A stretch of 64,000 bases of DNA from a virus (IMGVR_UViG_3300030419_006839:1-64000); one strand, 5' to 3'; shown: positions 16,654 through 33,299, numbered from the stretch's first letter. Notes: a model not told the origin generated them from the sequence alone. Program-made: numbers and translations.

Positions 16654-19053
16654 ATGGCTACATACGATAGGCGTTTAAATACTCCTTTAAAGGGAAATTC
16701 TTCTAGGATTTATGTGGCAGATCCGTCTACTAAGACATCTGCCACTTTTAATGAGGATGTTCTGACTACAACACCTTCTGATTTAGGTTTGTGGTCAAAG
16801 GAGGTTTTGCCTATCGTATCTGGTTCTAAACCTAGCGAGTCACATTCAAACATATCATCACGATATATTTCAGGAAGTGGTAGTGCAAACAGGGTTCATA
16901 AGGGAAAAACTAGGGTTGAAGGATCATATACTATTGCATTACCCCAACATTCAGTCTTAAATAGTATTTTTAAAGACTTTTTTGGTAAAAATTCTAAAGA
17001 AGAAACAAAAACATCAGTAAATTTCACATTAAAAGACGAATTAGACACTTCTGGATTGGCAATTTTACAACCAATAGACTACTCTACTAACTCATCTTCA
17101 AATCATCACCATTATGGCAAGGCATACTCTTATTTTCGTGGAATGAGGGTAAAAACACTTACCTTTTCTGCAGATAATGGCACTCAACCAGTACTTTTAG
17201 ACGTTAATTTCTTTGGAAACAGGGAGGATTATATCAACTCAGAAGGATATTTAGAGCCACATGAGAGAGACTTAACCAGTGTTTCAACCCCTTTTCCTAG
17301 CAAACAGAGTGAGATTAATGCATTATTTCATGGAAACTACGGTGTTTATCAAAATGTTTTAAGTTTGGAGGAGTTTCCAAGTTGGAATACTGAGTTGATA
17401 ATAAAAAATTCTAATAATGATGAAATAAAATTACCATTCTCTAATCTTTCTGTAGTTTTAGATAAAAATATACAGTTCACAGATACTATGAATGGGTCTA
17501 GACTTTATGATGATGTATTTTTTAGTGGCAATAGAGTAGTTAGTGGTAGTTTTGACTTATCTTTCATAGGGGAGACTTTCTGGGGAGGTGATGCTGAACA
17601 ACCTAACGGAAGTATCAATAGTAATAATTCCACGTATATAATGAGGGAAATGTTTGACTTAAGTGGTTTTACCCTAACTATTAATTTTAGGACAGTTGAT
17701 GGATCTAAATCTTTTAAAATTGAAATGCCTAATATACAGTTTACTGCAGGTAGGACTTTAAATAGTCTGAGGCATGGTCAAACAATACTACCCGTTTCTT
17801 TTCAAGCATTCCCTAGTGAAACATCCTCAACAATAAATAATAACACTGAAGTTAGTATTCAACAACAGAGAGATCTTTATCTTACGTTTGAAAATGAACC
17901 AACAGTATTTACAAGTAGTGCAGTTAAATATGTAACAACAGATTATGTTTCTAGAGATTCCACTGGAGCAAGTCTAGATAAACATATTATAGCTTATCAA
18001 GATGATACAAACTCATCATACCAATATGGAAAGTTAGTAGTATCTACCGTTAGTGGTAATAGTGTTTCTATAAGTAGTCCATATGTTTTTTCATCATCTA
18101 ATGTCTCTTACGTTTCAACAGTTTATGATGATTCGCAAAAAAGAGTAATTGTTGCCTATAGTGATGGCAGTAAGGGTAAGATGTTTTCATTCCAGTTGGA
18201 TTCTAATGGTCAAATGGTGAATCAAACACCTATAGTAACGTTTTGCAACTCTAATGTTTCACATATATCTACTGTATACAGTATTTTATATCAAAAGGTT
18301 GCTATTTTTTATTTAAGGTCTGATAATTCAACAGGACAGTCTATTGTTTTAAATTATAGTAGTGGAAGTTATATAATAGGTTCAGAAGTTCAATTTGATT
18401 CATATTCTTCTGTAGATGCGATACCAACATATATTTCTTCTATATATAGAAATATATCTGGTGACATTCTGATTTCATACTCTGATCAAAACTGGTTTGG
18501 AGTTGGTAAGGTTATTATAGGAAAAGTTTTGGAAACTACAACAAATAATGTAGCAACCTATAAAATGATATTTGATTCTACAACAAATAAAGTATTTTCT
18601 AGTAGATCTGTTTCTAGTATTGCAATGGGATATAACATACAAAATGATAATTTCTTAATGGTTTATAATGCCCACTATAATTCTCAATATGCTTTTGCGA
18701 GGATAGTTGAAATAGGAAACCCAAGTGCATCATCAATACACATAAGTCAGGAATATATGTTGTTTAGTGGTGAGATGAAGTATCCCTCTGTATCTTATGA
18801 TAGTCGAATAGGTGTTTTTGTAGTTAATTATAGAGATGAATCAGATTCAGATAAGGGTAAATCTAGATTGGTTTGGACAAATAATAATATATTGGAGTTA
18901 GATAGTATGGTAACTTTTGAACAAGGTAAGGCAAGTAGGTTTAAGCCAATAAACGCATCTTCTTATGATGTAGCGTCTAATAAGACGTTAATAGCATATT
19001 CTGATGATTCAGATTCAGATAAAGGTAAAATAGCTCTGGGAGGTATAAGATAA
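16654..19053 (+). CDS. Tail tube paralogue 2 fused to a C-terminal repeat (beta-propeller-like) domain
   Basis: N-terminal ~390 aa aligns by eye with 15163 (RVEGSYTI, GMRVKTLTFS, RVVSGSFDL, LPVSFQAF); C-half has ~50-aa repeats YD...VIVAYSD...KGK. Confidence 0.7.
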   Translation: MATYDRRLNTPLKGNSSRIYVADPSTKTSATFNEDVLTTTPSDLGLWSKEVLPIVSGSKPSESHSNISSRYISGSGSANRVHKGKTRVEGSYTIALPQHSVLNSIFKDFFGKNSKEETKTSVNFTLKDELDTSGLAILQPIDYSTNSSSNHHHYGKAYSYFRGMRVKTLTFSADNGTQPVLLDVNFFGNREDYINSEGYLEPHERDLTSVSTPFPSKQSEINALFHGNYGVYQNVLSLEEFPSWNTELIIKNSNNDEIKLPFSNLSVVLDKNIQFTDTMNGSRLYDDVFFSGNRVVSGSFDLSFIGETFWGGDAEQPNGSINSNNSTYIMREMFDLSGFTLTINFRTVDGSKSFKIEMPNIQFTAGRTLNSLRHGQTILPVSFQAFPSETSSTINNNTEVSIQQQRDLYLTFENEPTVFTSSAVKYVTTDYVSRDSTGASLDKHIIAYQDDTNSSYQYGKLVVSTVSGNSVSISSPYVFSSSNVSYVSTVYDDSQKRVIVAYSDGSKGKMFSFQLDSNGQMVNQTPIVTFCNSNVSHISTVYSILYQKVAIFYLRSDNSTGQSIVLNYSSGSYIIGSEVQFDSYSSVDAIPTYISSIYRNISGDILISYSDQNWFGVGKVIIGKVLETTTNNVATYKMIFDSTTNKVFSSRSVSSIAMGYNIQNDNFLMVYNAHYNSQYAFARIVEIGNPSASSIHISQEYMLFSGEMKYPSVSYDSRIGVFVVNYRDESDSDKGKSRLVWTNNNILELDSMVTFEQGKASRFKPINASSYDVASNKTLIAYSDDSDSDKGKIALGGIR

Positions 19054-22000
19054 TGGCACATGTATTAATTCTTGAAGGTGCAGGAACAGACTATTCTGTT
19101 GGTAGGACAGTGTTGTATGCTTTCGATAATAGTACATATGACCTAACCTCAAATACAAGTAGTATTTTAGTTAAGACAAAACCATCTGCAGGAGGAACTA
19201 CAATACTTACTATTTCTGACTTAAACACAAATAATTCTATTTCAAACTTAGTTACAGGAACTAGTGTTAGTGGTGGAGTTATTCCAGACTTACCTTCAGA
19301 TTTTGTAGGTGGTAAGTATAATTTAAAACTTACAGGAACTACTTGGAGTTTTGAAATTAGAACTGCATATGCAGAGTTGATAGAAGAGTTTTCAGATTCT
19401 TTTATAAAAGTAAATACTGCTGGAAGTTCAAGTGGTTCTGGTGGACTTACTGTAGAATCAGGTAGTGATGATGCTAAAATATATTTTACACATTCTGACA
19501 ACAAGTGGAAAAAAGGAGTTGGGAGTGATAATTATGAGATAGTTGGTAAGACTGAAATTCAAACCCTTACAAATAAAACAATATCAACAGCAAATAACAC
19601 TATAACACGTGCATCAACAGGTGACTTGGGTGTTGCATCTTTTAGTAATAGCAATTTTTCTGTTAGTAATGGTGCAGTTAGTATAAAGAATGATGGTATA
19701 GCACTAGGTACACATACAACTGGAAATTATATTAAGAACATAACTGCTAGTACTGGTCTAACTGGAGATACAGATTCCGAAGGTGGTCAAGCAACTTTAG
19801 CTATAGATAACACTGTTGTCACGCTTACTGGAACTCAAATATTAACCAATAAAACATTAAATGATCCAACAGTATCTGGTTTATATTTATCTGATTCTAG
19901 TATTGTTTTTGAGGGTAGTTCAAACGACTATGAAACAACACTATCAGTTGTAGAACCAACATCAGATAAAACTATTTCACTACCTACTCCAAATGCGAAT
20001 GATACAGTTACTCTTCTTGCGGAAACTCAAACACTAACAAATAAAACTTTGACATCCCCTGTCATATCTGGAGGAACTATAGATAATAATGTTATAGGTG
20101 GAACAACTCCAGCAGCAGGTACTTTTACTACTGGTACTTTCACTTCAGGATCTTTTACTACTTCTATTACTGTTGGATCTTCTAGTTTAACTTTAGATTC
20201 AAATTCAATCACAGTTTCAAATGATAATACAGCAAGTAATAGGAATTTACAACTAATACCTGGAGATCAAGTTGATGGAACTTTAAATACTCCATTTTGT
20301 GTTGGTCATGTTGAGATTATTAATAGTGGTTATGGATTAAGGATAGGTGCAGATCAGTATTACAACTCAGGGAGTTATGGGGTTTATGGAACTAGTACCA
20401 TCTCTAACGGTGATAAAAATAAAATTGCGTCAATAGTAACTCCTAGTTACAATCAAAATGGATCTGTTAAAGATAATGCACTACTTTACTCAGTAGCTGA
20501 ATCTAGTGCAACTGAGATATTTTATGGTGGACTTCCTAGTGGAACAACTCATGCATATCCAGCAACAAAACATGCCTTTATGACAGGTACTGCAAGCGAA
20601 TTACAAGATCCTACACCTACACAGCAAATGAGTATAACTCCATCTGGAGTTTCTGTATTTAATAAATTACATGTAGATGTTGGTGAAAGTGAATTGACTT
20701 TTGATAACGATGCCCCTTTCAGTAATGCTAATTTAAGAATATGGAGGAATGACACATCTATAACATCAGGAAATCCTTTAGGGTATCTTTCTTTTGCTGG
20801 TTCTGATGCAAATACATCACCTACTGATCATGCTACTATATATGCAGATGCTGCATCAAGTCATTCAGATGGTGATAATCCAACTAATTTAAAGTTTCAG
20901 ACTACTGATGATGGTTCTCAATTACCTGCAGATAGAATGACTATCCGTTATGATGGAAATGTAGGAATAGGAACTACTGCACCTACAGTTAAATTAGACG
21001 TTAATGGTGTTATTAAGGGAACAGGAATTACTATAGGTAACTCTACAAGTATTAGTTCTGTTGATACTGATTTATCTAGTGTTTCTGGATCTGATGATAC
21101 TTTAGCTTCTGCAAAATCTATTAAGACCTATGTTGACACCCAAATTACAGCACAAGATTTAGACTTTCAAGGTGATTCTGGTGGGGCTTTAAATATAGAC
21201 TTAGATTCTGAAGTCTTAACACTTACAGGTGGTTCAGCAATTACAACTACTGGTTCTGGAAATACGATTACAATTGACTTGAGTGTAGATGATTCAACCG
21301 TTGAGATAGCTTCAGATACCCTTAAGGTTAAGGATTTAGGAATTACTACAGCTAAGATTGCTGATACCAACGTTACTACAGCTAAGATTGCTGATGCCAA
21401 TGTTACTACAGCTAAGATTGCTGATTCAAATGTTACTACAGCTAAGATTGCTGATGCCAGTGTTACTACAGCTAAGATTGCTGATTCAAATGTTACTACA
21501 GCCAAGATTGCTGATTCAAATGTTACTACAGCTAAGATTGATGATGCCAACGTTACTACAGCTAAGATTGCTGATGCCAACGTTACTACAGATAAGATTG
21601 CTGATGCAAATGTTACTACAGCTAAGATTGCTGATTCAAATGTTACTACAGCTAAGATTGCTGATGCCAACGTTACTACAGCTAAGATTGTTGATGCCAA
21701 CGTTACTACGGATAAGATTAACAATAGTGCAGTTACTACAGCTAAGATTGCTGATGCCAACGTTACTACAGATAAGATTGCTGATTCCAATGTTACTAAT
21801 GCTAAACTTTCAAATAGTTCAATAACAGTTACTGCAGGAGGTGGATTATCTACTGGAGGTTCTGTCTCTTTAGGAAGTTCTGTTACATTAGATCATGCAG
21901 ATACATCAAGTCAAGCAAGTGTTGATAATAGCGGTTCTACGGTTATTCAAGATATTACTTTAGATACCTATGGTCATGTAACATCTTTGGGTTCAGTTCA

Positions 22001-24488
22001 AGTAACTTCAACTCTTGCAGGAGCAACAGATACAAATATAAATACCCCTTCTAGTGCTCATATTTTAGTTTATGATGGAAATGATTCTTGGGATAACAAG
22101 GCAATTTCTGGAGATATAACAATCAACTCCAGTGGGGTTGCTAGTATACAGGCAGATAGTGTTACTTTAGGTACAGACACTACTGGAAATTATGTATCAA
22201 CTATTACTGGTGGTAATGGTGTTTCTAGCACTGGTGCAACTACTGGCGAGAATATATCTCATACCTTATCTGTTGATACTAAAACTAATGGTGGTTTGGT
22301 TTTTGAATCAAACAAACTAACCTTAGATTTAGGTGCATCTACAATAACAGGAACTTTAGCGATTTCTGATGGTGGAACTGGAGCAACAGATGCATCAGGT
22401 GCGAGATCAGCTTTGGGTGTTGATGCATCAGGTACAGACAACTCAACAAATGTGACCTTAGTGACTACTAGTCATGATTATCTTTCTATAAGTGGTCAAG
22501 CAATTACATTAGGAACTATAGATATAGGTGATGATACTAACTTAACCGCAGGATCAGGAATTACACTATCAGGAGATACATTATCAGTTAATACTTCTGC
22601 AGTAGATCATGATTCTTTATCTAACTTTGTAGCTAATGAGCATATAGATTGGACTACATCAGGTGCAGGTACGATTCATTCTAATAATCTCCCAACTGTT
22701 AGTAATGTTACGGTTACAGATAATAATGATAATTCTAATTATGATGTAACATTTACTAATGGATCTAATGCACTTTTAGAGGATAATGGGGAGTTTTATT
22801 ATAACCCATCTACAGGAACTTTAAGAGTTCCAAATTTAACTGTTGAAGGAACCACTACTACTGTTGATAGTGTGCAAATGCAAGCACAAAATGCAATAGT
22901 TTTTGAAGGTGAAACGGCAGATGAATATGAAACAACTTTAACTATAACAGACCCAACTGCAGATAGAACAATTACACTACCGAATATAAATGGTACATTA
23001 ATTACTACTGGAAACTTATCAGATATAACAACAGTTGGTACAGTTTCTAGTGGAACATGGCAAGGTACTGCAATTACTGATACTTATATCGCTTCTGAAT
23101 CAACTTGGAATGCAAAATTAGATACTGCTGGTACAGGACTAACTAAATCTGGAACAACAATTAATTTAGATTCATCTCAATCACTTTCTTCCTTAACTGT
23201 TAGTGGATCAACAGCATTGAATGGTGGAATAACTGTTGACACTAATGCTTTTATTGTTGCAGATTCAACTGGAACTGTGACATCAACAGGAAATTTAAAC
23301 TTTTCAGGAACAGGTAATTCTAATATTGTAGGTAAACTTGGAGTTGGTTTAGCATCTTCAGCTATGACAGGTTCCACTTTAGAGATTGGAACTGGTGCTT
23401 TAAGAGTTAAAAATGCCACTGTTGATAGTCAGGGGTTTAACATAAGTCAGGAATCTTCTAATATATCTAGAATTCATAATGCTTTTGATGATGGTGTGAT
23501 TACTTTTGGAAACAAAGCAACACATTGTGAGAGGATGAGATTAGATTCTAGTGGTCAATTAGGAATAGGAACTTCTCCAGCTACAACTTTACATATAAAA
23601 TCTGCTAATCCTGTAATAAAACTAGAAGATTCTGATCCCGATACTGTTTATGGTCAAATTGATGGTGCTGGTGGTACTTTAATCCTAATTGCTGATGGTG
23701 GTGGTGCTGCTGCAAGTTCTGCAATTAAATTTAGAATTGATGGTGGAACCGCATCTAGTGATAAGATGGTAATATTGGATTCTGGCAACGTAGGAGTTGG
23801 AAATAATTCTCCAGCAGAAAAGCTACATGTTGATGGAGCTATTAGATTGGGAACAACATCTAATGAAGTTGCTGGAAACTTGAGGTGGACAGGAAGTCAG
23901 TTTCAAGGTTATTCTGGAAGTGAGTGGTTAAATTTAGGTGCAGGTGGAGGTGCAGGAACTCCAACAATAAATTCTGGTGTTGCAAAATCTTTAGCGTATT
24001 ACGACAGTGCAGGTAATCAATTATCCGATACTGAAACAACTTCAGGAGATGGAGTTTATTGGGATTCTACAAATGATAGATTGGGTATAGGAACATCTAC
24101 ACCATCATCAACTTTGGATGTAAATGGACATCTTTCCGCAACAACTAAATCTTTTGATATAGAACATCCATCTAAAGAAGGAAAAAGATTAATACATGGA
24201 TCTCTTGAAGGCCCAGAACATGGAGTTTATATTAGAGGTAGAACTAATGGAGAAAAGGAAGTGGAATTACCAGAATATTGGATTGACCTTGTGGATTTGG
24301 ATACAATTACGGTACAATTAACCGCTATTGGTAATAAACAAGATATTTGGGTAGCTTCAATTGATAACAGTCGAATTAAAATAGGAAGTGATATGGGGTT
24401 TGTAGATTGTTTTTATTTCATTCAGGCAGAACGTAAGGATGTTGATAAACTTCAGATTGAAGTTGAGGAGGTAAGCAGTAATGGCTAA
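19053..24488 (+). CDS. Long tail fibre (proximal-type), 1811 aa
   Basis: QTLTNKT repeats, VTTAKIAD tandem repeat, GNVGIGTTAP motifs, C-terminal KSFDIEHP...HGSLEGPEHGVYIRG domain. Confidence 0.85.
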   Translation: MAHVLILEGAGTDYSVGRTVLYAFDNSTYDLTSNTSSILVKTKPSAGGTTILTISDLNTNNSISNLVTGTSVSGGVIPDLPSDFVGGKYNLKLTGTTWSFEIRTAYAELIEEFSDSFIKVNTAGSSSGSGGLTVESGSDDAKIYFTHSDNKWKKGVGSDNYEIVGKTEIQTLTNKTISTANNTITRASTGDLGVASFSNSNFSVSNGAVSIKNDGIALGTHTTGNYIKNITASTGLTGDTDSEGGQATLAIDNTVVTLTGTQILTNKTLNDPTVSGLYLSDSSIVFEGSSNDYETTLSVVEPTSDKTISLPTPNANDTVTLLAETQTLTNKTLTSPVISGGTIDNNVIGGTTPAAGTFTTGTFTSGSFTTSITVGSSSLTLDSNSITVSNDNTASNRNLQLIPGDQVDGTLNTPFCVGHVEIINSGYGLRIGADQYYNSGSYGVYGTSTISNGDKNKIASIVTPSYNQNGSVKDNALLYSVAESSATEIFYGGLPSGTTHAYPATKHAFMTGTASELQDPTPTQQMSITPSGVSVFNKLHVDVGESELTFDNDAPFSNANLRIWRNDTSITSGNPLGYLSFAGSDANTSPTDHATIYADAASSHSDGDNPTNLKFQTTDDGSQLPADRMTIRYDGNVGIGTTAPTVKLDVNGVIKGTGITIGNSTSISSVDTDLSSVSGSDDTLASAKSIKTYVDTQITAQDLDFQGDSGGALNIDLDSEVLTLTGGSAITTTGSGNTITIDLSVDDSTVEIASDTLKVKDLGITTAKIADTNVTTAKIADANVTTAKIADSNVTTAKIADASVTTAKIADSNVTTAKIADSNVTTAKIDDANVTTAKIADANVTTDKIADANVTTAKIADSNVTTAKIADANVTTAKIVDANVTTDKINNSAVTTAKIADANVTTDKIADSNVTNAKLSNSSITVTAGGGLSTGGSVSLGSSVTLDHADTSSQASVDNSGSTVIQDITLDTYGHVTSLGSVQVTSTLAGATDTNINTPSSAHILVYDGNDSWDNKAISGDITINSSGVASIQADSVTLGTDTTGNYVSTITGGNGVSSTGATTGENISHTLSVDTKTNGGLVFESNKLTLDLGASTITGTLAISDGGTGATDASGARSALGVDASGTDNSTNVTLVTTSHDYLSISGQAITLGTIDIGDDTNLTAGSGITLSGDTLSVNTSAVDHDSLSNFVANEHIDWTTSGAGTIHSNNLPTVSNVTVTDNNDNSNYDVTFTNGSNALLEDNGEFYYNPSTGTLRVPNLTVEGTTTTVDSVQMQAQNAIVFEGETADEYETTLTITDPTADRTITLPNINGTLITTGNLSDITTVGTVSSGTWQGTAITDTYIASESTWNAKLDTAGTGLTKSGTTINLDSSQSLSSLTVSGSTALNGGITVDTNAFIVADSTGTVTSTGNLNFSGTGNSNIVGKLGVGLASSAMTGSTLEIGTGALRVKNATVDSQGFNISQESSNISRIHNAFDDGVITFGNKATHCERMRLDSSGQLGIGTSPATTLHIKSANPVIKLEDSDPDTVYGQIDGAGGTLILIADGGGAAASSAIKFRIDGGTASSDKMVILDSGNVGVGNNSPAEKLHVDGAIRLGTTSNEVAGNLRWTGSQFQGYSGSEWLNLGAGGGAGTPTINSGVAKSLAYYDSAGNQLSDTETTSGDGVYWDSTNDRLGIGTSTPSSTLDVNGHLSATTKSFDIEHPSKEGKRLIHGSLEGPEHGVYIRGRTNGEKEVELPEYWIDLVDLDTITVQLTAIGNKQDIWVASIDNSRIKIGSDMGFVDCFYFIQAERKDVDKLQIEVEEVSSNG
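21341..21790 (+). repeat. 30-bp (10-aa VTTAKIADAN) tandem repeat, 15 copies
   Basis: GTTACTACAGCTAAGATTGCTGATGCCAA[C/T] units in perfect 30-nt register, in frame within the fibre gene. Confidence 0.95.
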
Positions 24489-27400
24489 AGATGTACTCAT
24501 AACTCCAGCAAGTGGTAAGATAGAGTTAAAAGATGATAATGTTACTAATGTGTATATTTCAGAAGGAAACGTAGGAATAGGAACTGCTGATCCAGATTCA
24601 ATTCTTCATGTTCAAAATGGGTCTGCTGGAACTGTTGATGCATATTCAAATTCTACTTTAGTGCTAGAAGCAAGTACAGATAATAATTTTATCAATATGC
24701 TTTCTCCTGATGCTAAAAATCAAGGAATACTTTTTGGAGATGCAACTCAAAATTGGAATGGTCAGATTCAGTATAATCATAATGGCAATTACATGGCATT
24801 TTATACTAATCAATCTGAGCAAATAAGAATTACTTCTGGTGGTAGTGTAGGAATCGGAACTGCTTCACCAAGTGAACAATTACACCTTCTTGCTCCTACT
24901 GGTGGTTCTAGTTCACTAAGAATAGATTCTTGTGCTGATGGTGCTGAATTGCAATTGAATGATATTGCTGGCACTGTTACTGGAATGTGGACACTAAAGA
25001 ATAGAAATGGTGATGGTAGATTTGGAATTTCAACTGGTAGTGGTGATGGAACTGATGCATTTGTTATAACTACTGATGGCGAAGTGGGAATCGGAACTAC
25101 TTCACCATCTCATGCACTACATGTTCAGGGGTCTGGTGATACTGTTTTTAGATTAGTAAAGGCAGGGAATGGAAATTTATATACTAGACGTGGAAGTGAT
25201 TCTGTCGATTTTATTAGTGCTAGTGGAACTTCAACAAAAAGAGATATAAAATTTATAGGTGCATCTGATATAAGTTCTAGTGAAACTACTCATATGATAA
25301 TTGAAGGTGATAGTGGAAATGTAGGGATCGGAACTGCTTCACCATTAGAAAAATTAACGATTGGTGGTGGAACAGGAGATGGAGACACATATAATTCTGT
25401 TATAAGATTTGATAGAACTTCTTCAACTGGAAATGTATTGGCAAGTAATATAGTTTTTGATGACCAAGATACCAATTGGGGTGATTTGAAGTTTAGGATG
25501 AAAACTACTGCCAGTTCAGGTGAGGATGCTGGATACTGGACTGATGCCTTAACTATCGAAGGTCGATATGGCAACGTAGGGATCGGAACTACTGCACCAC
25601 AATCAATTTTGGATATTAAAGGTGGAGATACTTCAGGTCAAACTTTAGGAACAGAAATAACAATCCATCACAATAATAATAATACTAACGACAATATAGG
25701 AAGAATTACTTTTAGGAACAATAGTGCAGATGACTTAGCTGCAATTCAAGCATATACTGTAGGTGCAAACACTCAAGGTGAGTTAAGTTTCTGGATTGAT
25801 AATGATGAAAAAGTTAGGATTGATAATGATGGCAAAGTAGGGATAGGGGAGACTAGCCCAACAACCCAACTTGATATTCGCACAGCAAATTGTGCAATAT
25901 TCTGGTGTAATAGCACACATGGTTGTTTCATTTCGAGGGATGGTTCTAATTACCCAAGATTTACTCATAATAATGGTTCTGCTCAATTAGGATTATTTAG
26001 AGCAGGAACTTCAAATCAGGGTGGAATGTATGTTGGTGCTGATGACGGTGGGTTTTATGTTTGGAGTGATGCATTTGCTAAAAGATTTTGTGTATGTGCA
26101 ACTTCAAACATCGCAACTACTAATATTTTTTGCGGTACAACTTCTGTGAATACACCTTTACTCAATGCATCTGGTCAAACTCCCATAAAAATAACTGGTG
26201 ATGCTGATGCTGCCTTTATTTGTTTTACAGGTGGTGCTTCTGATGATTGGCTAGTAGGTACAGTAAACAGTCTTGCAGGATTTGGATTTAAGAACACTAC
26301 TGATGATGAATATAGATTTTTTATAGGGGATGATGGTAAGGTTTCCATAGGTTCTACATCTTCAAGTTATCCACTCCAAGTAATAACAAATATTTCTGGT
26401 GGTACAACTCCTCAAATAGTTGCTAGAGACTTAGGCACTTCTGATGCTACAATTGGATTTCAAATTGCTTCTGCTGCTAATTGGTCAATAGGCATAGATA
26501 ATTCTGATTCAGATAAGTTTAAGATTGCAACGGGTCTGGATGTTGGAACTACACCTAGAATGACTATAGATACTTCTGGCAACGTAGGAATAGGAACTAC
26601 TTCACCAGATACAAAACTTAATATTGATGGTGGAACGGGAAGTCAATCTACAGGTTTAAGTTTTGGTGATGGTGATACAGGGTTCTATGAGCATTCAGAT
26701 GATTCTTTGTGGTTCTTTTCTGCTGGTGTTAGTAGATGGAAGTCAGATTCAGTTTATATGATGTCAACAACCACAGGAGATAAAGCATCTATAGTAAATG
26801 AGGTAGCATCTGGAACCAATCCAGTTTTCACTTTTTATGGTGATACAGATACAGGTATTGGTAAATATGCAGCCGATAAGTTATCACTTATAGCAGGGGG
26901 AACAAATACTGTTACGGTAGCAAATGGTTGTGTAGGAATCGGAACTACTTCACCTAGTGATAAGCTTCATGTTAAATCTGCTAGTAATGTTATTGTTGAT
27001 ATAGAGGCAGGTACAGAGTCTACTAACCATTATTCAATGTTAAGGATGACTCCAACTGGAACTCAAAATTCGTATCTAAGGTTTGGTGGTAATTTTTATT
27101 CACAAAATCTTAGTGGTACAGACTTTTTAACTATTTTATCAGGTGGTAACGTAGGGATTGGATGTGCTTCACCAGCATATAAATTAGATGTATGCGGTTC
27201 AAATGATTTAGTAAGATTTAGGTCTACCAGTGATTCTGCTAGTGATAGTGTTCTTAGAATGGAGAATAATTCTGGAACTGCATTATTTAATATGAGAGGT
27301 AGTGGGTTACTATGTCTTTCTGGCAACGTAGGAATTGGAAAGACTCCAAGTTATGCTTTAGACATTGACGGTACTTTTCGTGGCACATCTAAAGATTTAA

Positions 27401-30400
27401 GATTTGGTGTTTGGGATAGTACGAAAATAAAAATTGTTAATTATGAGGCAGCAGATGCTGCAGATTTACGGTTGTCCAATAGGTATGAAAATCCTATTTT
27501 CTTTGAAACTAATGATACAGTTAGGGGTTGTTTTACTTCTACTGGTTTAGTCGTTGCTGGTGTAACTTGCTCTACAACTTCTGTAAATTCACCTATTGTT
27601 TGTGCTACAAGTTGTTTACAGGCATATAAAGTTTGTCCAACTTATATGCTTCATATGGATGATTGTACGAATTTAGGAGCATCAAAAAGATTTTTCTGTA
27701 TGTACTGGAAACCTAGAGTTACGGCTGCTAGTGGAAATCTTTACAATATAGGGTCGCATATAACTGGTGAGTATGGTGTTCAGAGTGGTTGTACTCATTG
27801 TGGTTATGATGTTGGTATGGCAATTCAGAGATTGGGTGGGGATCAACTTGAAGGAACTGTTGTTAATGCTTCAGCTTTGTACACTCAATTTGGTCATTAT
27901 AGTGATGTTACAGGAACTACTTGTTGTTCATATGGCATTTGTATAGAACCATATTATTATGGGGGAACTGTAACTCATGGGTATGCTATATATATTAAAG
28001 CACCAGTTACAGGTGGAACTATAACAAATCAGTATGGTCTTTATGTAGATGGTTCTAGTGCATGTAATTACTTTGCTGGCAACGTAGGAATCGGATGTAC
28101 TTCACCAGCAGTACCACTTCATGTTTCTGGTGTAACTTGTTCTTCTTGGTTTTGTGCTGATACTGGTGTTTGTTTCAAATCTAGTAGTGCTTGTATTTCT
28201 CTCAATCAGCATTACTTTGATACGAGGGGTGCTTCTGGTGCTTGGTGTGGAATTTCTGCTATATTTAGAACAGCAGCTGGTAATGACCCCAATAATAAAT
28301 GGGTTGCAATAGGAGCAACTAACGATCATGGTTGGTTAAGTTTTGCCTCTGGTGCAAATAAACATTTGGTATTGTGTTCAGATGGAAAAATAGGAATCGG
28401 AACTACTTCGCCTGGTGCAGAGTTAGAAGTTAATGGTGAAGTTTTGTTACCTAACAATAAGGGCATTCTATTCAAAGACAGTTCTTCATCAACTCTAGGT
28501 ATTAAGTCAGACACAAGTGATAGATTGACATTTAGATCTGGTGGTAATTGGGATCGAATGGTCATTGATTCTGGTGGAAAAGTAGGAATAGGAACTACTT
28601 CACCACAAAGACAACTTCATGTACATTGTTCTAGTTCTTCTTGGGATCAGTGTGCATCTCTTAGGTTATCATCCGAAAATGTAACCAATTTTTACGGAGA
28701 AGTTCAGTTTCATAGAGGTACTTCCGATACTTCTGATATGGGATTGAATTTATTAGTTAGTAATTCTGGAAGTGAAAATTTAACTCCCAAACTCCATGTA
28801 AATGTTGATGGCAACGTAGGAATCGGAACTACTACGCCAGATGAAGCATTGACTGTTGGTGGATCACATAACAATCCCATTGGAACTTATTTTGGTGGAG
28901 AAAAACAATTCCGAATTTATCAAGATGCAGCTGGTGCAGTTGTCGGTATTGGTGATAATTTGGCATCTGAGACAGATATAATTCGTTTTGATGGTAGGAA
29001 TTCATCTCAACCTTCTTGGTTTAATGGTGGTAATGTAGGAATTGGAGAGACTAATCCAAGCAGGAATCTTGAAGTTGCAATGGGTGGAGTTAATGAACCA
29101 GCAATAAACATAAAAGGGTCTACTCATTCATCTTGGACGGATCGAGCTACTATTGGATTTAATTATAATGGATCTGATACTGGTTTTATTATAGGAAGTG
29201 GTTTGGGTGATGCAACTAAAGACTTTTATATTTGGGATGTTTATGACGGTGCATCTAGATTTTTTATAGATACTGATGGCAACGTAGGAATAGGAACTAC
29301 TTCACCAGCAGTCAAACTTGATATAGATCAAAATGGAAATCCAAGTGGAAGTGTAGATGTTTTAAGAATACAAAATAGTGATGGTGCTGGTTTTGGGGAA
29401 GAACATAGGATTAAATGGAAGATTGACACTAGAGATATAGCATACATAGGTGCATCATATTTGACAGATACCAATGGCGGTGGAATAACTTTTGCAACTC
29501 GTCAAGGTGGAACTGTTACTGAAACGATGAGATTGGATGAGAATGGCAACGTAGGAATCGGAGTTGTTACACCCAATGCTTTATTACAAGTTAATGGCAG
29601 AGTTACTGCTGGTTATGATGTAGATAATCATGGTCGAGTTACTATTGGTTCGGGGTCTGCTGTAGATGAACTTTTGTCTTTATCTGTTCAAGGTGGTAGT
29701 GGAAGTACACAAGGTAAAGGTTGTATAGGTTTCAGGCAATCTCCTACTAAGACACATCCATCTGTTAGTCTTGATTTTGAAGAATATGACACAGGCGACC
29801 ATATGGGTACTTTTGGTATATCTGTAACTCAATCTAATGCAGATGTCGCACCTACTAGAGCTTTGACTGTGAAAGGTACTGGTAGTGTAGGAATCGGAAC
29901 TACTTCACCAGATACATTACTTCATGTTTGTCAGGCAGGTCAGACTACTTTAGTTAGAACAGAAACGGCAGCCAATTCAACTACTGGATTTGACATCAAG
30001 AAAACTGGATCAACTACACAACATTGGAGGATTGCAGACGGACAGACTACTAATGGGAAATTAGAGTTTTACGATGTAACAGATAGTCGTTCTATTATGA
30101 CATTTGATGGTGCTGGCGAAGTAGGAATCGGAACTACTTCACCAGAATCAAAATTACATGTCATAGATTCTAGTACTTCGACACAACTCAGGTTAAATCA
30201 ATCAGGGGATAATGATGCCTTGATTGGTTCTGGTACTGGATATTTCCAAATCAAAACTGGAGATGCTGGTGCAAATAATGCATTAACTATTTTACATAGT
30301 AATCAGAATGTAGGAATAGGAACTACTGATCCAAAAAATGTTTTGCATGTCAAGCAAGCTGCTGACGGAAATTACTATGAGGGTGGAATTCAGGTTGGTG

Positions 30401-31152
30401 GCACTACTGATGCTTTAGGTGGAATATTTGGATATAGTGGTTTAGGATCAGGTCGTGTCAACATTTCCAATCTCAATAATGCTGGTGGTACTGCTTCTAC
30501 AATAAAATTTGGATTTGGTGCTATTACTTCTGGATCTCCAGCCAGTACTATGATGACTGTGAATCAGTTGGGTAATGTAGGGATTGGAACTACTGATCCA
30601 GGCTCTAGGTTGCATGTAAATGGTACTTCTGCCGATAATAATGGCATTAGACTTTCATATAATAGTTGGGCTGCAAATGGATTTAAGATAGAGCAAGATT
30701 CATCTACTGCTCACTTGATGTTTAGATATATGTCTGGTTCTAGTATTGGTTGTACGATGTTGAAGATTACTTATAATGGTGATGCTGTATGTGCCTCTGG
30801 TGATGTTGTTGCATATGCCTTCTCTGATTGTAGAATCAAAAATAATTTAAAACTCATTAGTTGTCCAATTGATAAAATAAAAGTAATTTCTGGTTATGAG
30901 TTTGATTGGAATACCAAAGAACAGAGTGTATACGAAGGAAATGATGTTGGGGTTATCGCACAAGAAGTTGAAAAGGTTTTACCGCAAATTGTATGTACCA
31001 GAGACACTGGATATAAAGCAATTAAGTATGAAAAAATTGTACCATTATTAATCGAAGCAACCAAAGAGCAACAGTGTACTATCGAAAAACAACAAAGACA
31101 AATAGATACCTTGACATGTCAGGTAGAATTGTTACTAAAAAGGTGTGCGTAG
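24481..31152 (+). CDS. Long modular tail fibre (distal-type) with C-terminal peptidase S74 intramolecular chaperone
   Basis: About 22 GNVGIGTTSP-type motifs; SDCRIK...GYEFDW...DVGVIAQEVEKVLP...YEKIVPLLIEA followed by coiled coil. Confidence 0.9.
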   Translation: MAKDVLITPASGKIELKDDNVTNVYISEGNVGIGTADPDSILHVQNGSAGTVDAYSNSTLVLEASTDNNFINMLSPDAKNQGILFGDATQNWNGQIQYNHNGNYMAFYTNQSEQIRITSGGSVGIGTASPSEQLHLLAPTGGSSSLRIDSCADGAELQLNDIAGTVTGMWTLKNRNGDGRFGISTGSGDGTDAFVITTDGEVGIGTTSPSHALHVQGSGDTVFRLVKAGNGNLYTRRGSDSVDFISASGTSTKRDIKFIGASDISSSETTHMIIEGDSGNVGIGTASPLEKLTIGGGTGDGDTYNSVIRFDRTSSTGNVLASNIVFDDQDTNWGDLKFRMKTTASSGEDAGYWTDALTIEGRYGNVGIGTTAPQSILDIKGGDTSGQTLGTEITIHHNNNNTNDNIGRITFRNNSADDLAAIQAYTVGANTQGELSFWIDNDEKVRIDNDGKVGIGETSPTTQLDIRTANCAIFWCNSTHGCFISRDGSNYPRFTHNNGSAQLGLFRAGTSNQGGMYVGADDGGFYVWSDAFAKRFCVCATSNIATTNIFCGTTSVNTPLLNASGQTPIKITGDADAAFICFTGGASDDWLVGTVNSLAGFGFKNTTDDEYRFFIGDDGKVSIGSTSSSYPLQVITNISGGTTPQIVARDLGTSDATIGFQIASAANWSIGIDNSDSDKFKIATGLDVGTTPRMTIDTSGNVGIGTTSPDTKLNIDGGTGSQSTGLSFGDGDTGFYEHSDDSLWFFSAGVSRWKSDSVYMMSTTTGDKASIVNEVASGTNPVFTFYGDTDTGIGKYAADKLSLIAGGTNTVTVANGCVGIGTTSPSDKLHVKSASNVIVDIEAGTESTNHYSMLRMTPTGTQNSYLRFGGNFYSQNLSGTDFLTILSGGNVGIGCASPAYKLDVCGSNDLVRFRSTSDSASDSVLRMENNSGTALFNMRGSGLLCLSGNVGIGKTPSYALDIDGTFRGTSKDLRFGVWDSTKIKIVNYEAADAADLRLSNRYENPIFFETNDTVRGCFTSTGLVVAGVTCSTTSVNSPIVCATSCLQAYKVCPTYMLHMDDCTNLGASKRFFCMYWKPRVTAASGNLYNIGSHITGEYGVQSGCTHCGYDVGMAIQRLGGDQLEGTVVNASALYTQFGHYSDVTGTTCCSYGICIEPYYYGGTVTHGYAIYIKAPVTGGTITNQYGLYVDGSSACNYFAGNVGIGCTSPAVPLHVSGVTCSSWFCADTGVCFKSSSACISLNQHYFDTRGASGAWCGISAIFRTAAGNDPNNKWVAIGATNDHGWLSFASGANKHLVLCSDGKIGIGTTSPGAELEVNGEVLLPNNKGILFKDSSSSTLGIKSDTSDRLTFRSGGNWDRMVIDSGGKVGIGTTSPQRQLHVHCSSSSWDQCASLRLSSENVTNFYGEVQFHRGTSDTSDMGLNLLVSNSGSENLTPKLHVNVDGNVGIGTTTPDEALTVGGSHNNPIGTYFGGEKQFRIYQDAAGAVVGIGDNLASETDIIRFDGRNSSQPSWFNGGNVGIGETNPSRNLEVAMGGVNEPAINIKGSTHSSWTDRATIGFNYNGSDTGFIIGSGLGDATKDFYIWDVYDGASRFFIDTDGNVGIGTTSPAVKLDIDQNGNPSGSVDVLRIQNSDGAGFGEEHRIKWKIDTRDIAYIGASYLTDTNGGGITFATRQGGTVTETMRLDENGNVGIGVVTPNALLQVNGRVTAGYDVDNHGRVTIGSGSAVDELLSLSVQGGSGSTQGKGCIGFRQSPTKTHPSVSLDFEEYDTGDHMGTFGISVTQSNADVAPTRALTVKGTGSVGIGTTSPDTLLHVCQAGQTTLVRTETAANSTTGFDIKKTGSTTQHWRIADGQTTNGKLEFYDVTDSRSIMTFDGAGEVGIGTTSPESKLHVIDSSTSTQLRLNQSGDNDALIGSGTGYFQIKTGDAGANNALTILHSNQNVGIGTTDPKNVLHVKQAADGNYYEGGIQVGGTTDALGGIFGYSGLGSGRVNISNLNNAGGTASTIKFGFGAITSGSPASTMMTVNQLGNVGIGTTDPGSRLHVNGTSADNNGIRLSYNSWAANGFKIEQDSSTAHLMFRYMSGSSIGCTMLKITYNGDAVCASGDVVAYAFSDCRIKNNLKLISCPIDKIKVISGYEFDWNTKEQSVYEGNDVGVIAQEVEKVLPQIVCTRDTGYKAIKYEKIVPLLIEATKEQQCTIEKQQRQIDTLTCQVELLLKRCA
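24565..30600 (+). repeat. Dispersed ~30-bp repeat (GGCAACGTAGGAATCGGAACTACTTCACCA consensus) separating unrelated fibre modules
   Basis: Copies at e.g. 24841, 25078, 25315, 25570, 26578, 26926, 28078, 28576, 28810, 29278, 29545, 29881, 30115, 30571. Confidence 0.85.
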
Positions 31153-32265
31153 ATGAGTTATTTTACAACAAATAATTGCTATGATTGTTGTTTGTTATAT
31201 CCTAAATATAATCACATTTATACGCCATATAACGATACAAACTATCACGAAGCATTAGCATCTTCTGGAGCAATAAGTTTGGGAACTACTGCTGGAACAG
31301 ATAGAAGTATATCTGGTGAGTTTGGTGGTAGTACTCCTCATGCATTATCAGAATACTATGGAGTTGCTAGTGGTATACCATCATCTGGTACAATAGATTT
31401 TTCTGATTTTCATGGAAAATCAGCAGCAAATGAGGAGTTTCGTTGGTTGTATCTTCAAAGTGGAGGTACTACTGACCGTCAAAGTTGTATATGTTGTGCT
31501 ATTCTTTGTACATATAAGTGTTGTATTCATCCATCAAGTAGTTCTTTACATAATTGTCTTGAAAAATTAGATGTATACTTTAGTACAAACCACATAACTA
31601 TTGGTGGTATGCTTGCTCAATGTTATTCTGCTGGATGTGATTATACTGCAATACTTTTTGCTGGAAATGTAGATATGGTAAAAACTGGTTTTAGCGAGTG
31701 TTTATGTTGTGCTGTTAAAACTCATGGTACGGGTTTTGTTACTGGTATGTGGGTAGGTGGACTTCACAATTATGGATTTTGGAGTACAGATTCTTCTAAT
31801 TGTAATGACTGCTATCTTGATGATTTTAGATTAGTTGCTCCTAATGGTAGTAATAGCAATACATGTGCTCCCTATTCAAATATATGGAGTGGTTTTACAG
31901 ATGTTGATTTATCTAGTCATTCCGCTTCTACACACTCAATTTTGTGTAATGTTTGCTGTCTTTCTGGTATTGATGGTAAGACTTCACATAATTGTTGTTT
32001 CTGTTTGAATAGTTGCACTACTGATGGTAGTAGTACAAATTGGGTGTGTACAGGTTCAGTACATAGTGTTTGTGGTGGGAAGATGTTTGTATATGGAGAT
32101 CCTTGTAGTAAGTTTTCTGGTGCTGGTAGGCAAGTATCCCTTAATTTACAACTTGATCATGATGGTTTTGGACTTTGTGGAATTACAGTATGGGATAATT
32201 CTGATTATGGTGGTAGTAGGTTAGTAACGAATTCCCTTATATGGGCATCGAGAGGTGCTTTATGA
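31153..32265 (+). CDS. Cysteine-rich fibre-tip adhesin-like protein
   Basis: ASSGAISL...EFGGSTPHALSEYY...GIPSSGTIDFSDFHGKS domain typical of genes following S74 fibres; 29 Cys in 370 aa by hand count. Confidence 0.65.
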   Translation: MSYFTTNNCYDCCLLYPKYNHIYTPYNDTNYHEALASSGAISLGTTAGTDRSISGEFGGSTPHALSEYYGVASGIPSSGTIDFSDFHGKSAANEEFRWLYLQSGGTTDRQSCICCAILCTYKCCIHPSSSSLHNCLEKLDVYFSTNHITIGGMLAQCYSAGCDYTAILFAGNVDMVKTGFSECLCCAVKTHGTGFVTGMWVGGLHNYGFWSTDSSNCNDCYLDDFRLVAPNGSNSNTCAPYSNIWSGFTDVDLSSHSASTHSILCNVCCLSGIDGKTSHNCCFCLNSCTTDGSSTNWVCTGSVHSVCGGKMFVYGDPCSKFSGAGRQVSLNLQLDHDGFGLCGITVWDNSDYGGSRLVTNSLIWASRGAL

Positions 32266-32510
32266 TTACAATAAATATACCAGAAAAAGTATACGGAATA
32301 GAATTAAGTGAAGTTGAGATTGTAGAATATAGTAAGGATTATTTTTCAAGTTTTCCAAACAACGATTGTTCTCTTGAAATTGTATATGTTTTATCAAAAA
32401 ACGGAACTAGGGTAGGAAATCATGGTGTTCGTTATTTAAATAAAATTGATAAAGATTTTGATGAAGAAGTTCTCAAAGGATTTTTTATAGATGGGTTTAA
32501 TAATATATAA
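32262..32510 (+). CDS. Hypothetical protein (fibre-associated)
   Basis: GAGGTG RBS and ATGA overlap suggest start at 32262 rather than 32241. Confidence 0.55.
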   Translation: MITINIPEKVYGIELSEVEIVEYSKDYFSSFPNNDCSLEIVYVLSKNGTRVGNHGVRYLNKIDKDFDEEVLKGFFIDGFNNI

Positions 32511-32595
32511 TTGGATTAAAATTTAAAAAAGTAGTAAAAAACCTCAGTAAAATTATGTTATAAGGTTAAGTAATATTTTATTGGAGGTATTTAGG

Positions 32596-32925
32596 ATGTC
32601 GAATTTGGATCTAACTCAAGATGAGTTAGTAGAAGCAAAAACGCATATAAATTTAATTCAAAAATCGTATAGAAAATTAGAGTCTGCACAATATGCAGTA
32701 AGAGAATTGGAAGGTGATTTTAGGGATTTAATTACATTACATATTCAACAAAAAGGAGGAGATCCTGAGTTGCAATATAATTTAAACACTGATACGGGAT
32801 CTTTAGAACCTGTACAACAAGATCAGTTGGAAGAAGGTAGTCAAAATGGAAATATGCCTTCAGAGGAATCTCTTGATCCAAGCGGTAACTTTCAGTTTGG
32901 AGAAGATGAAGCTGAAGAAGTATAG
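32596..32925 (+). CDS. Hypothetical protein, coiled coil with acidic tail
   Basis: GGAGG RBS before ATG 32596. Confidence 0.6.
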   Translation: MSNLDLTQDELVEAKTHINLIQKSYRKLESAQYAVRELEGDFRDLITLHIQQKGGDPELQYNLNTDTGSLEPVQQDQLEEGSQNGNMPSEESLDPSGNFQFGEDEAEEV

Positions 32926-32968
32926 ATATATTAACAACCACGAAAGTGTAAAATAAAGAGGTGATGAA

Positions 32969-33277: not shown

Positions 33278-33299
33278 ATAACATCTGAAAGGAACTTTA

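What the first reader, a model, noticed from the sequence alone, without database searches (positions are those of the whole stretch)
24565..30600. Repeat-spacer architecture inside a fibre gene: DNA-level conserved joints between unrelated modules
Seen: about 22 copies of a 10-codon motif, mostly 180-350 bp apart, with mutually dissimilar sequence between them. Synonymous positions are conserved (GTA GGA ATC GGA ACT ACT TCA CCA; GGC AAC), including C-ending codons that look uncommon in this AT-rich genome. Cys-rich and Cys-free modules alternate roughly at these joints. Inference: the joints act as short homology cassettes for in-frame module exchange, gain or loss, giving a recombination-based receptor-range diversifier without invertase or reverse transcriptase.
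Basis: partly seen in the sequence, partly recalled or inferred. Interest (0 to 1): 0.72.

Follow-up and report, generated by a model that had tools for sequence, protein, structure and literature searches.

The report
Recombination joints between phage fibre modules
A giant tail-fibre gene of an uncultured marine phage is a string of 22 dissimilar modules, each opened by one short motif that keeps the same DNA spelling, and related phages carry single modules in other orders with the joins falling in that motif, a new case of how phages are known to reshuffle their host-recognition fibres.

Summary
Gene 24481-31152 (+, 2223 aa, C-terminal S74 chaperone) has 22 in-frame copies of G-N-V-G-I-G-T-T-S-P, 19 of 21 spacings 177-350 nt. 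Silent sites in the motif match far more than the gene's codon usage predicts (z=8.1, 0 of 5000 resamplings), using codons that are rare elsewhere (GGC, AAC, ATC). The conserved Leu and Val just after the motif show no such effect.

With the motif removed, no two modules are detectably similar (0 of 231 pairs).

Fifteen modules have 72-98% identical counterparts in at least nine other metagenomic fibres, against a 40-47% background, in different orders and with different neighbours. Patch ends fall in the motif: 23 of 28 protein ends and 10 of 12 DNA ends. The four partner contigs with DNA use the same motif spelling. Other lineages use other spellings, and 33 of 50 sampled fibre genes are homogenised in this way.

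The motif is the published "capping loop" of trimeric beta-helix fibres (Bdellovibrio MAT, PDB 8OND). The mechanism parallels conserved-motif recombination in T-even fibres.

Not shown: that homology drives the crossovers, that the spelling is an adaptation, or any effect on host range.

This scan reached the same reading on other genomes. No reverse transcriptase, invertase or RecA was found.

The parts
24481..31152 (+). Giant tail-fibre gene (2223 aa) built of 22 modules plus a C-terminal S74 chaperone
   Evidence: Intact ORF. PHROG tail-fibre families match at E 1e-94. More than 3500 long homologues, most carrying S74.
30823..30993 (+). Peptidase_S74 intramolecular chaperone domain, with S-D-x-R-x-K at aa 2115-2120
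   Evidence: Pfam PF13884, E 4.8e-9. Own-genome search 43.8 bits. Motif position.
24565..24594 (+). Joint motif copy 1 (opens M01)
   Evidence: M01 (24571-24854) is 96.8% nt identical to L220.
24841..24870 (+). Joint motif copy 2 (M02)
   Evidence: The M01/L220 patch ends 13 nt into it.
25078..25107 (+). Joint motif copy 3 (M03)
25315..25344 (+). Joint motif copy 4 (M04)
   Evidence: M04 is 80% aa identical to P0005 and 85.6% nt identical to L220.
25570..25599 (+). Joint motif copy 5 (M05)
   Evidence: M05 patch 25569-25833 is 95.5% nt identical to L221. L221 switches from M19-like to M05-like sequence inside this motif.
25831..25860 (+). Joint motif copy 6 (M06, Cys-rich, 168 aa)
26335..26364 (+). 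Joint motif copy 7, degenerate (G-K-V-S-I-G-S-T-S-S; opens M07)
   Evidence: 12 of 30 mismatches to the consensus. M07 is still shared: 92% aa with P0004 and 95% nt with L219.
26578..26607 (+). Joint motif copy 8 (M08)
   Evidence: Aa 683-906 are homologous to the Bd2133 beta-helix regions, PDB 8OND.
26926..26955 (+). Joint motif copy 9 (M09)
27145..27174 (+). Joint motif copy 10 (M10)
27322..27351 (+). Joint motif copy 11 (M11, 252 aa, 13 Cys; Pro one residue early)
   Evidence: 72% aa identity to the Cys-rich fibre P0025.
28078..28107 (+). Joint motif copy 12 (M12)
   Evidence: M12 patch 28077-28407 is 97.3% nt identical to L219/L009, with flanks at 32-34%.
28384..28413 (+). Joint motif copy 13 (M13)
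   Evidence: 86% aa identity to P0003. The M12-M13 junction is bridged by an independent contig from run X3.
28576..28605 (+). Joint motif copy 14 (M14)
   Evidence: M14 is 98% aa identical to P0004, with both patch ends in motifs.
28810..28839 (+). Joint motif copy 15 (M15)
29029..29058 (+). Joint motif copy 16 (M16)
   Evidence: M16 is 92% aa identical to P0003, where it directly abuts M19. The same adjacency appears in a 623-nt contig from run X4.
29278..29307 (+). Joint motif copy 17 (M17)
   Evidence: M17 is 94% aa identical to P0004.
29545..29574 (+). Joint motif copy 18 (M18)
   Evidence: M18 is 84% aa identical to P0005, where it abuts M21.
29881..29910 (+). Joint motif copy 19 (M19)
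   Evidence: The M19 body is 89-90% identical in P0001, P0003 and P0020. The neighbouring modules there are 7-25% identical.
30115..30144 (+). Joint motif copy 20 (M20)
   Evidence: 74-79% aa identity to P0048, P0109 and P0091.
30304..30333 (+). Joint motif copy 21 (Q-N-V-G-I-G; M21)
   Evidence: 78% aa identity to P0003.
30571..30600 (+). Joint motif copy 22 (M22, leads into S74)
19053..24488 (+). Upstream fibre gene (1811 aa) with looser copies of the same motif at nt 20955, 23553, 23784 and 24075

Best explanation
The gene encodes a very long trimeric beta-helix tail fibre with a C-terminal S74 chaperone. It is assembled from about 22 sequence-dissimilar modules of roughly 60-250 aa. Each module opens with the structural capping-loop motif G-N-V-G-I-G-T-T-S-P-x-x-x-L.

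That motif is the only sequence all modules share. It is therefore the place where recombination between fibres of co-infecting related phages, or between motif copies, can join any module in frame to any other. Repeated crossovers and heteroduplex repair inside this roughly 30-nt stretch swap, add, remove and reorder single modules. As cause or as consequence, they also keep the motif's silent sites uniform within a gene and across the group of phages that exchange modules.

Shown here:
- the mosaic pattern;
- breakpoints falling in the motif;
- silent-site homogeneity;
- lineage-specific spellings of the motif.

Inferred:
- that homology in the motif mediates the crossovers;
- that the result alters what the fibre binds.
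For: - Silent-site excess is confined to the 10 motif codons (z=8.1). The conserved Leu13 and Val15 give z about 0.
- Glycine codons are position-specific: GGC at the first Gly, GGA at the second and third. A tRNA preference cannot explain this.
- Different modules have different best-hit proteins at 72-98% identity, against a 40-47% background.
- Module order differs in the partners. P0004 has M17, M14, M07. P0003 has M16-M19 then M13. P0005 has M18-M21. L221/P0020 has M19-M05.
- M19 is 89-90% identical in three proteins whose neighbouring modules are 7-25% identical.
- 23 of 28 protein patch ends lie within -2 to +13 aa of the motif start (P=8e-14). 10 of 12 DNA patch ends lie within -1 to +36 nt (P=3e-7). 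Identity falls from 92-97% to 28-47% across the ends.
- The three-way alignment shows L221 switching parents inside the 30-nt motif.
- Partner contigs L219-L222 use the same spelling although GGC, AAC and ATC make up 3-19% of their background. Non-partners use other spellings.
- 33 of 50 fibre ORFs with 6 or more copies are homogenised within the gene (z>3), in several different spellings.
- The motif is the capping loop in the solved structure 8OND.
Against: - Exact identity between motif copies is short: median 9 nt, and 20 nt or more in only 5% of pairs. That is below the usual minimum for efficient homologous recombination.
- M07 has a degenerate motif and is nevertheless exchanged at that point.
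- How close a module's motif is to the consensus does not correlate with having a near-identical partner (rho -0.16, p=0.49).
- One close relative (L218, 88% nt) has its breakpoint inside the M21 body and not in a motif.
- About 88 further IMG/VR contigs carrying the same spelling share no module with this gene.
- All partners are metagenome assemblies.
- DNA for the best protein partners could not be fetched.
Confidence: 0.78

Rival explanations
1. The motif is only a structural capping loop. Module exchange happens by illegitimate or microhomology recombination anywhere, and selection keeps only chimeras joined at domain boundaries. The silent-site bias comes from translation or mRNA-level selection, such as accuracy at critical residues or pausing at rare codons.
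For: The motif has a proven structural role. Exact matches are short. M07 is exchanged with a degenerate motif, and motif quality does not predict mobility. GGC-AAC at the first two codons is enriched family-wide across spellings.
Against: The equally conserved Leu13 and Val15 show no codon homogeneity. The three motif glycines use different fixed codons. Lineages of similar GC3 fix different spellings, some made only of common codons (GGT AAT GTT GGT ATA GGT ...), and these are still homogenised (z up to 11.6). Illegitimate joining would not homogenise silent sites.
Confidence: 0.14
2. The mosaic is an assembly artefact. Metagenome assemblers hop between co-occurring phages at the repeated motif and create false module orders, in the window itself or in its partners.
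For: All the sequences are metagenome assemblies. Logan k=31 contigs break at the motif, and many apparent joints are just the motif mapping to several copies (side shorter than 45 nt).
Against: Exact repeats between motif copies are at most 32 nt and mostly 8-18 nt. That is shorter than the final k of usual assemblers. Shared modules differ by 3-14% and so are not reads of one genome. The same alternative adjacency, M16-M19, appears in an ENA protein and in an independent run's contig. The M11-M12 and M12-M13 junctions of the window are bridged in other samples. Partners come from at least five assembly projects.
Confidence: 0.05
3. A recent tandem-repeat array. The modules are young duplicates of one unit and the motif's DNA identity is left over from common descent.
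For: The architecture is periodic, with about 80-aa units and a shared motif.
Against: Module bodies show no detectable similarity to each other (0 of 231 by blastp, 0 of 231 by hhalign). DNA conservation stops abruptly at the motif edges.
Confidence: 0.02

Closest known systems
Recombination between conserved motifs in T-even phage distal tail-fibre and adhesin genes (gp37 motifs; gp38 glycine-rich motifs between hypervariable segments). Tetart et al. 1996 and 1998, as cited in Trojet et al. 2011, PMC3157838.
   Same: Short conserved motifs separate variable segments. [quoted passage not shown]
   Different: The protein family is different: an S74 beta-helix fibre, with no gp37 or gp38 homology outside the S74 region. 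There are 22 joints in one gene. Whole modules of 60-250 aa are reordered, not only swapped in place. Silent-site homogeneity with lineage-specific spellings is quantified here.
MAT (mosaic adhesive trimer) fibres of Bdellovibrio bacteriovorus and S74 phage fibres. Caulton et al. 2024, PMC10769870; PDB 8OND, 8OML, 8OJN.
   Same: Aa 683-906 align to the Bd2133 beta-helix regions at E 1e-13 to 4e-15. The motif matches the published capping-loop consensus, and Bd2133 carries three copies in the solved part. A C-terminal S74 domain is present, as in 13 MAT members.
   Different: That paper describes the motif as a protein structural feature and describes chimeric tips. In the passages I read the only mentions of recombination are in cloning methods. 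This gene is phage-encoded, twice as long, and shows DNA-level conservation of the motif and exchange of single shaft modules.
General domain mosaicism of phage receptor-binding proteins. Smug et al. 2023, PMC10684548.
   Same: Recent shuffling (70% identity or more) of protein fragments among tail fibres of different phages.
   Different: That survey works at the level of protein profiles. The word 'breakpoint' does not occur in its text, and no shared DNA joint is described.
Programmed fibre diversifiers: diversity-generating retroelements and invertase systems (Mu Gin, P1 Cin, shufflons).
   Same: The target is a host-recognition fibre and the outcome is alternative fibre sequences.
   Different: The 104.8-kb record has no reverse transcriptase and no serine invertase. 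All motif copies are direct, none inverted. There is no template repeat. Variation is between lineages and has not been shown within a clone.

Membership tests
S74-terminated trimeric beta-helix fibres (phage tail fibres / MAT-like fibres) | C-terminal Peptidase_S74 intramolecular chaperone domain with the Ser...Lys cleavage motif | tested here: met
   PF13884 at aa 2115-2171, E 4.8e-9, above the cut-off. S-D-C-R-I-K at aa 2115-2120. That this is the catalytic dyad is from my own knowledge of endosialidase chaperone domains.
S74-terminated trimeric beta-helix fibres (phage tail fibres / MAT-like fibres) | Repeated capping-loop motif (V-G-x-G/N-x-x-x-P-x-x-x-L) bounding beta-helix segments | tested here: met
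   22 copies. They align to the three copies in the Bd2133 crystal construct.
S74-terminated trimeric beta-helix fibres (phage tail fibres / MAT-like fibres) | Sequence homology to a solved beta-helix fibre region | tested here: met
   8OND_A at E 1.4e-13 (whole protein) and 4.2e-15 (aa 674-923), covering M08-M09 only.
S74-terminated trimeric beta-helix fibres (phage tail fibres / MAT-like fibres) | Intertwined trimeric beta-helix fold in all modules | tested here: inconclusive
   The AlphaFold2 monomer model of aa 1795-2035 has mean pLDDT 47 and is unusable. Module bodies show no profile similarity to each other.
S74-terminated trimeric beta-helix fibres (phage tail fibres / MAT-like fibres) | Autoproteolytic release of the chaperone; trimer formation | not testable with these tools
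   Needs expression and SDS-PAGE with a Ser mutant, as was done for Bd3182.
Conserved-motif recombination system of T-even fibre and adhesin genes | Conserved short motifs flanking variable segments, with inter-phage exchange breakpoints in or near the motifs | tested here: met
.
Conserved-motif recombination system of T-even fibre and adhesin genes | Homology to gp37 or gp38 | tested here: not met
   No gp38 or gp37 family in Pfam. PHROG 'long tail fiber distal subunit' hits cover only the S74 end. It works like this system but is not a member.
Diversity-generating retroelement | Reverse transcriptase plus a template/variable repeat pair | tested here: not met
   PF00078 is absent from the record, which is 73% complete. 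Repeats are 30 nt and dispersed, not a TR/VR pair.
Invertase-driven fibre switching (Gin/Cin, shufflon) | Serine or tyrosine invertase and inverted repeats flanking alternative segments | tested here: not met
   PF00239 is absent. 14 forward and 0 reverse motif matches. Tyrosine recombinases were not searched.
CRISPR-type repeat-spacer array | Non-coding direct repeats with unique spacers | tested here: not met
   The repeats are translated in frame inside one intact 2223-codon ORF, and all spacings are multiples of 3.

The most novel reading that the evidence does not exclude
The silent-site spelling of the capping-loop motif is itself selected. It would act as a compatibility tag, so that any module can be joined in frame to any other within a group of phages sharing the spelling. 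Different spellings would then define separate module-exchange networks: a natural, barcoded, combinatorial assembly system for host-recognition fibres that needs no dedicated enzyme.
Probability: 0.3. Interest if true: 0.8.

Novelty: new variant of a known kind. Interest (0 to 1): 0.6.

Why it matters
Tail fibres decide which bacteria a phage can infect. How uncultured marine phages remodel them is largely unknown. This gene shows module-by-module reshuffling of a fibre shaft at a single repeated joint, with a measurable DNA signature: silent-site homogeneity and lineage-specific spellings. That signature can be scanned for in any metagenome.

If the joint's DNA identity governs exchange, it would explain how very long fibres diversify without dedicated enzymes. 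It would define which phages can trade parts. It would also point to natural, structurally tolerated splice points for building chimeric fibres in laboratory phage-host systems.

Tried and rejected
Nucleotide breakpoints for the best protein partners (P0003, P0004, P0005) could not be mapped.
- **Read laying**. Most listed joints have a matching side shorter than 45 nt, which is the motif itself mapping to another copy. Logan k=31 contigs also break at the motif. I counted only the 623-nt X4 contig (M16 to M19, sides 281 and 200 nt) and two contigs that bridge junctions. Gaps in cover were not used.
- **AlphaFold2** on aa 1795-2035 with a 13-row alignment gave mean pLDDT 47. No fold search was run.
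- **Motif quality against mobility.** Whether motifs nearer the consensus flank the more mobile modules: no correlation.
- **More partners.** IMG/VR was searched by the motif's DNA spelling: 91 stretches were found, and the roughly 88 loci returned shared no new module. Searches by the M07 and M14 peptides found only distant relatives. Bacterial genome representatives gave nothing.
- **Isolate phages.** The phage collection gave only a 116-nt hit to Pelagibacter phage HTVC008M in the S74 region.
- **Readings rejected.** A recent tandem-duplication origin is contradicted. An internal Shine-Dalgarno-like or rare-codon pause signal does not fit, because other spellings lack both features yet are still homogenised.
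- **Other.** No tRNA genes in the window.


Full report
**Setting.** The window is the first 64 kb of a 104,851-bp IMG/VR virus record estimated to be 73% complete. It is AT-rich, at 28-39% GC. The finding lies in a tail module. A ribonucleotide reductase gene is followed by a tail-fibre gene (10007-13183), minor tail genes, an 1811-aa fibre (19053-24488) and then the 2223-aa fibre 24481-31152. The only isolate-phage DNA match is a 116-nt stretch of Pelagibacter phage HTVC008M in the C-terminal domain. The protein ends in a Peptidase_S74 intramolecular chaperone domain (aa 2115-2171; S-D-C-R-I-K at 2115). It matches PHROG tail-fibre families.

**The observation.** There are 22 in-frame copies of G-N-V-G-I-G-T-T-S-P, with first codons at nt 24565 to 30571. 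All spacings are multiples of three, and 19 of 21 are 177-350 nt. Codon choice in the motif is unlike the rest of the gene:
- GGC 10/21 against 6%
- AAC 9/13 against 9%
- GTA 19/21 against 31%
- GGA 16/21 and 20/22 against 30%
- ATC 11/22 against 8%
- ACT 31/32 against 62%
- TCA 11/14 against 22%
- CCA 17/20 against 47%

I resampled codons for the same amino acids from the gene's own usage. This gives 749 +/- 46 identical-codon pairs, against 1120 observed (z=8.1, none of 5000 resamplings). The eight columns after the motif include an almost invariant Leu and a conserved Val, and they give z=0.4. The three glycines use different fixed codons. The DNA-level conservation is therefore real and confined to about 30 nt. 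A general preference for accurate codons at conserved residues does not explain it.

With the motif and its immediate flanks removed, no two modules resemble each other. Blastp gives E<1e-3 in 0 of 231 pairs, the same as shuffled controls. Shallow profile-profile comparison gives 0 of 231 at probability >=50.

**What the motif is.** The protein matches solved chains of Bdellovibrio MAT fibres, with 8OND (Bd2133) at E 1.4e-13 over aa 683-906. In the residue-level alignment, the three motif copies in the Bd2133 construct align with the window's copies at aa 700, 816 and 889. Caulton et al. 2024 (PMC10769870) describe this element as a 'capping loop' on the edges of trimeric beta-helix segments, with a V-G-...-P-x-x-x-L consensus. 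They find it in S74 and non-S74 fibres. The motif therefore has an established structural role at the protein level. In the passages I read, nothing is said about its DNA.

**Mosaic structure.** More than 3500 long homologues exist, and the closest are only 36-38% identical overall. Module by module the picture is different:

| Module | Best partner | aa identity |
|---|---|---|
| M04 | P0005 | 80% |
| M05 | P0020 | 92% |
| M07 | P0004 | 92% |
| M08 | P0007 | 72% |
| M11 | P0025 | 72% |
| M12 | P0008 | 93% |
| M13 | P0003 | 86% |
| M14 | P0004 | 98% |
| M16 | P0003 | 92% |
| M17 | P0004 | 94% |
| M18 | P0005 | 84% |
| M19 | P0003 / P0020 | 88% / 86% |
| M20 | P0048 | 79% |
| M21 | P0003 | 78% |

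Modules without a partner score 40-47%. M01 has its partner at the DNA level only (L220, 96% nt).

Order is not kept. P0004 carries M17, then M14, then M07, the reverse of the window. In P0003, M16 directly abuts M19 and M13 follows. In P0005, M18 abuts M21. In P0020, M19 abuts M05. The M19 body is 89-90% identical in P0001, P0003 and P0020. The modules on either side of it there are 7-25% identical.

**DNA-level patches.** Metagenome contigs with DNA in hand show the same pattern:
- M01 24571-24854 matches L220 at 96.8%.
- M05 25569-25833 matches L221 at 95.5%.
- M07 26341-26548 matches L219 at 95.2%.
- M12 28077-28407 matches L219/L009 at 97.3%.
- M04 matches L220 and M19 matches L221 at 86-92%.

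The 90 nt outside each patch fall to 28-47% identity in most cases. Elsewhere these contigs match the window at 68-76% where they can be aligned at all. L219 and the IMG/VR contig L009 are the same sequence.

**Where the breakpoints fall.** I took the best partner for each module. Of the 28 protein patch ends, 23 lie between -2 and +13 residues of a motif start. The chance expectation is about 17% per end, giving P=8e-14. Of the 12 DNA patch ends, 10 lie between -1 and +36 nt of a motif start (P=3e-7). A three-way alignment shows L221 following the window's M19 up to the motif and the window's M05 from just after it. All three sequences are alike inside the 30 nt.

Two exceptions exist. The right end of the M07/L219 patch lies 30 nt before the next motif. 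The close relative L218 (88% nt from 30372 into the downstream genes) has its breakpoint inside the M21 body. The second is expected for ordinary recombination between homologous modules.

**Population data.** Runs other than the likely source hold only 10-31% of the gene's words, which fits sharing of parts. Laying Logan contigs of four runs gave many apparent joints at motifs. Most have under 45 nt on one side and are the motif mapping to another copy. The k=31 contigs also break at the motif, so I do not count these. One 623-nt contig (X4) joins M16 to M19 with 281 and 200 nt on either side, the same adjacency as in P0003. Contigs from X3 and X4 bridge the window's M12-M13 and M11-M12 junctions.

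**Spelling of the motif in relatives.** The four partner contigs use the window's spelling (GGC AAC GTA GGA ATC/ATA GGA ACT ACT TCA CCA), although GGC, AAC and ATC make up 3-19% of their background usage. L222 has ATC in 16 of 18 copies. Contigs that share no modules use other spellings. In a sample of 50 fibre ORFs with six or more copies, 33 show within-gene silent-site identity above their own codon-usage null (z>3, up to 14). At least four recurrent spellings occur, including one made only of common AT-rich codons. Homogenisation is therefore general in this fibre family, while the codons that become fixed are lineage-specific. That fits concerted evolution through recombination among motif copies. 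It argues against selection for particular codons.

**Mechanism and its limits.** The most economical reading has three steps.
1. The capping loop is the only sequence shared by all modules.
2. Homology-dependent events between fibres, or between copies, can therefore only land there.
3. Such events both reshuffle modules and homogenise the motif's DNA.

This could be self-reinforcing without being an adaptation.

Several results count against a simple homology-cassette picture.
- In-register exact matches between copies are short. The median is 9 nt and the mean 10.8, against 7.8 under the null. Matches of 20 nt or more occur in 5% of pairs against 0.3%.
- M07's motif has 12 of 30 mismatches, yet M07 is shared with two other fibres with a break at that point.
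- Closeness of a motif to the consensus does not correlate with having a partner.
- About 88 more IMG/VR contigs with the same spelling share no module.

No reverse transcriptase, serine invertase or RecA was found in the record, and all motif copies are direct. This is not a DGR or an invertase switch. Nothing here shows switching within a clone. The evidence is of exchange among lineages. No effect on receptor binding was tested. Caulton et al. note that capping loops bound surface clefts on the beta-helix, so shaft modules might bind ligands, but that is inference.

**Cysteine.** Most homologues contain almost no Cys (median 0.09%). A minority are Cys-rich: P0008 3.8%, P0004 3.1%, P0025 2.9%. 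The window's Cys-rich modules M11, M12 and M14 have their best partners in those proteins. The Cys-free modules M13, M16, M19 and M21 match the Cys-free P0003. The patchy Cys content is thus a compositional trace of the mosaic origin and not a regular alternation.

**Comparison with what is known.** The principle is established for T-even phages: exchanges in fibre and adhesin genes occur within or near conserved motifs (Tetart et al. 1996 and 1998, as cited by Trojet et al. 2011, PMC3157838). Recent fragment shuffling among receptor-binding proteins is documented broadly (Smug et al. 2023, PMC10684548). The following are new relative to those papers, as far as my searches reached:
- the family (S74 beta-helix fibres);
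- the joint (the capping loop);
- the scale (22 joints, with single shaft modules reordered);
- the quantified silent-site homogeneity with lineage-specific spellings.

Earlier follow-ups in this scan reached the same reading on other genomes. One bacterial fibre was reported to conserve the motif only at the protein level. I reached my reading before seeing these notes.

**Verdict.** It is unproven for homology as the cause, for adaptive value and for host-range effect. This is a new variant of a known kind, of moderately high interest.

Noticed in passing
window 24481-31152; P0008, P0004, P0025: Cysteine content marks module origin. Most homologous fibres have about 0% Cys, while a few have 3-4%. 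The window's Cys-rich modules (M11, M12, M14) match Cys-rich fibres and its Cys-free modules match Cys-free ones. Why some marine fibres are Cys-rich is unexplained.
   Followed up: partly
motif codons 1-2, family-wide (loci L013-L217): GGC-AAC at the first two motif codons is enriched across several otherwise different spellings and in AT-rich genomes: GGC 191 observed against 75 expected, AAC 220 against 123. Lineage-specific drift does not explain this.
   Followed up: partly
L219:2652-3885 versus window 32967-34189: In the partner phage L219, homologues of the window's genes downstream of the fibre (68% nt) lie between two fibre genes. The M07-like module sits in the upstream fibre and the M12-like module in the downstream one. 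Modules therefore move between paralogous fibre genes too.
   Followed up: partly
L218 versus window 30372-32812: A 2.8-kb Tara contig is 88% nt identical from mid-M21 through the downstream genes. Upstream it carries a different, Cys-containing module. The breakpoint lies inside the M21 body and not in a motif.
   Followed up: yes
window 21200-21650 (aa ~720-860 of the 19053-24488 fibre): About 19 tandem copies of a 10-residue repeat (consensus A-N-V-T-T-A-K-I-A-D) in the upstream fibre. The Pfam Decapeptide and Pentapeptide matches are weak and below cut-off; PHROG tail-fibre families match.
   Followed up: no
window 24481-24488: The fibre gene's ATG overlaps the last 8 nt of the upstream fibre gene, which suggests translational coupling of the two fibres.
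   Followed up: no
window 27322-28077 and 25831-26334: The two long Cys-rich modules (M11 and M06) share a second short motif (C-x-T-T-S-V-N-x-P). hhalign gives its best, though weak, inter-module score for this pair (probability 42). One contig joint in run X5 links the M12 start (28142) to the M06 copy of this motif (26137).
   Followed up: no
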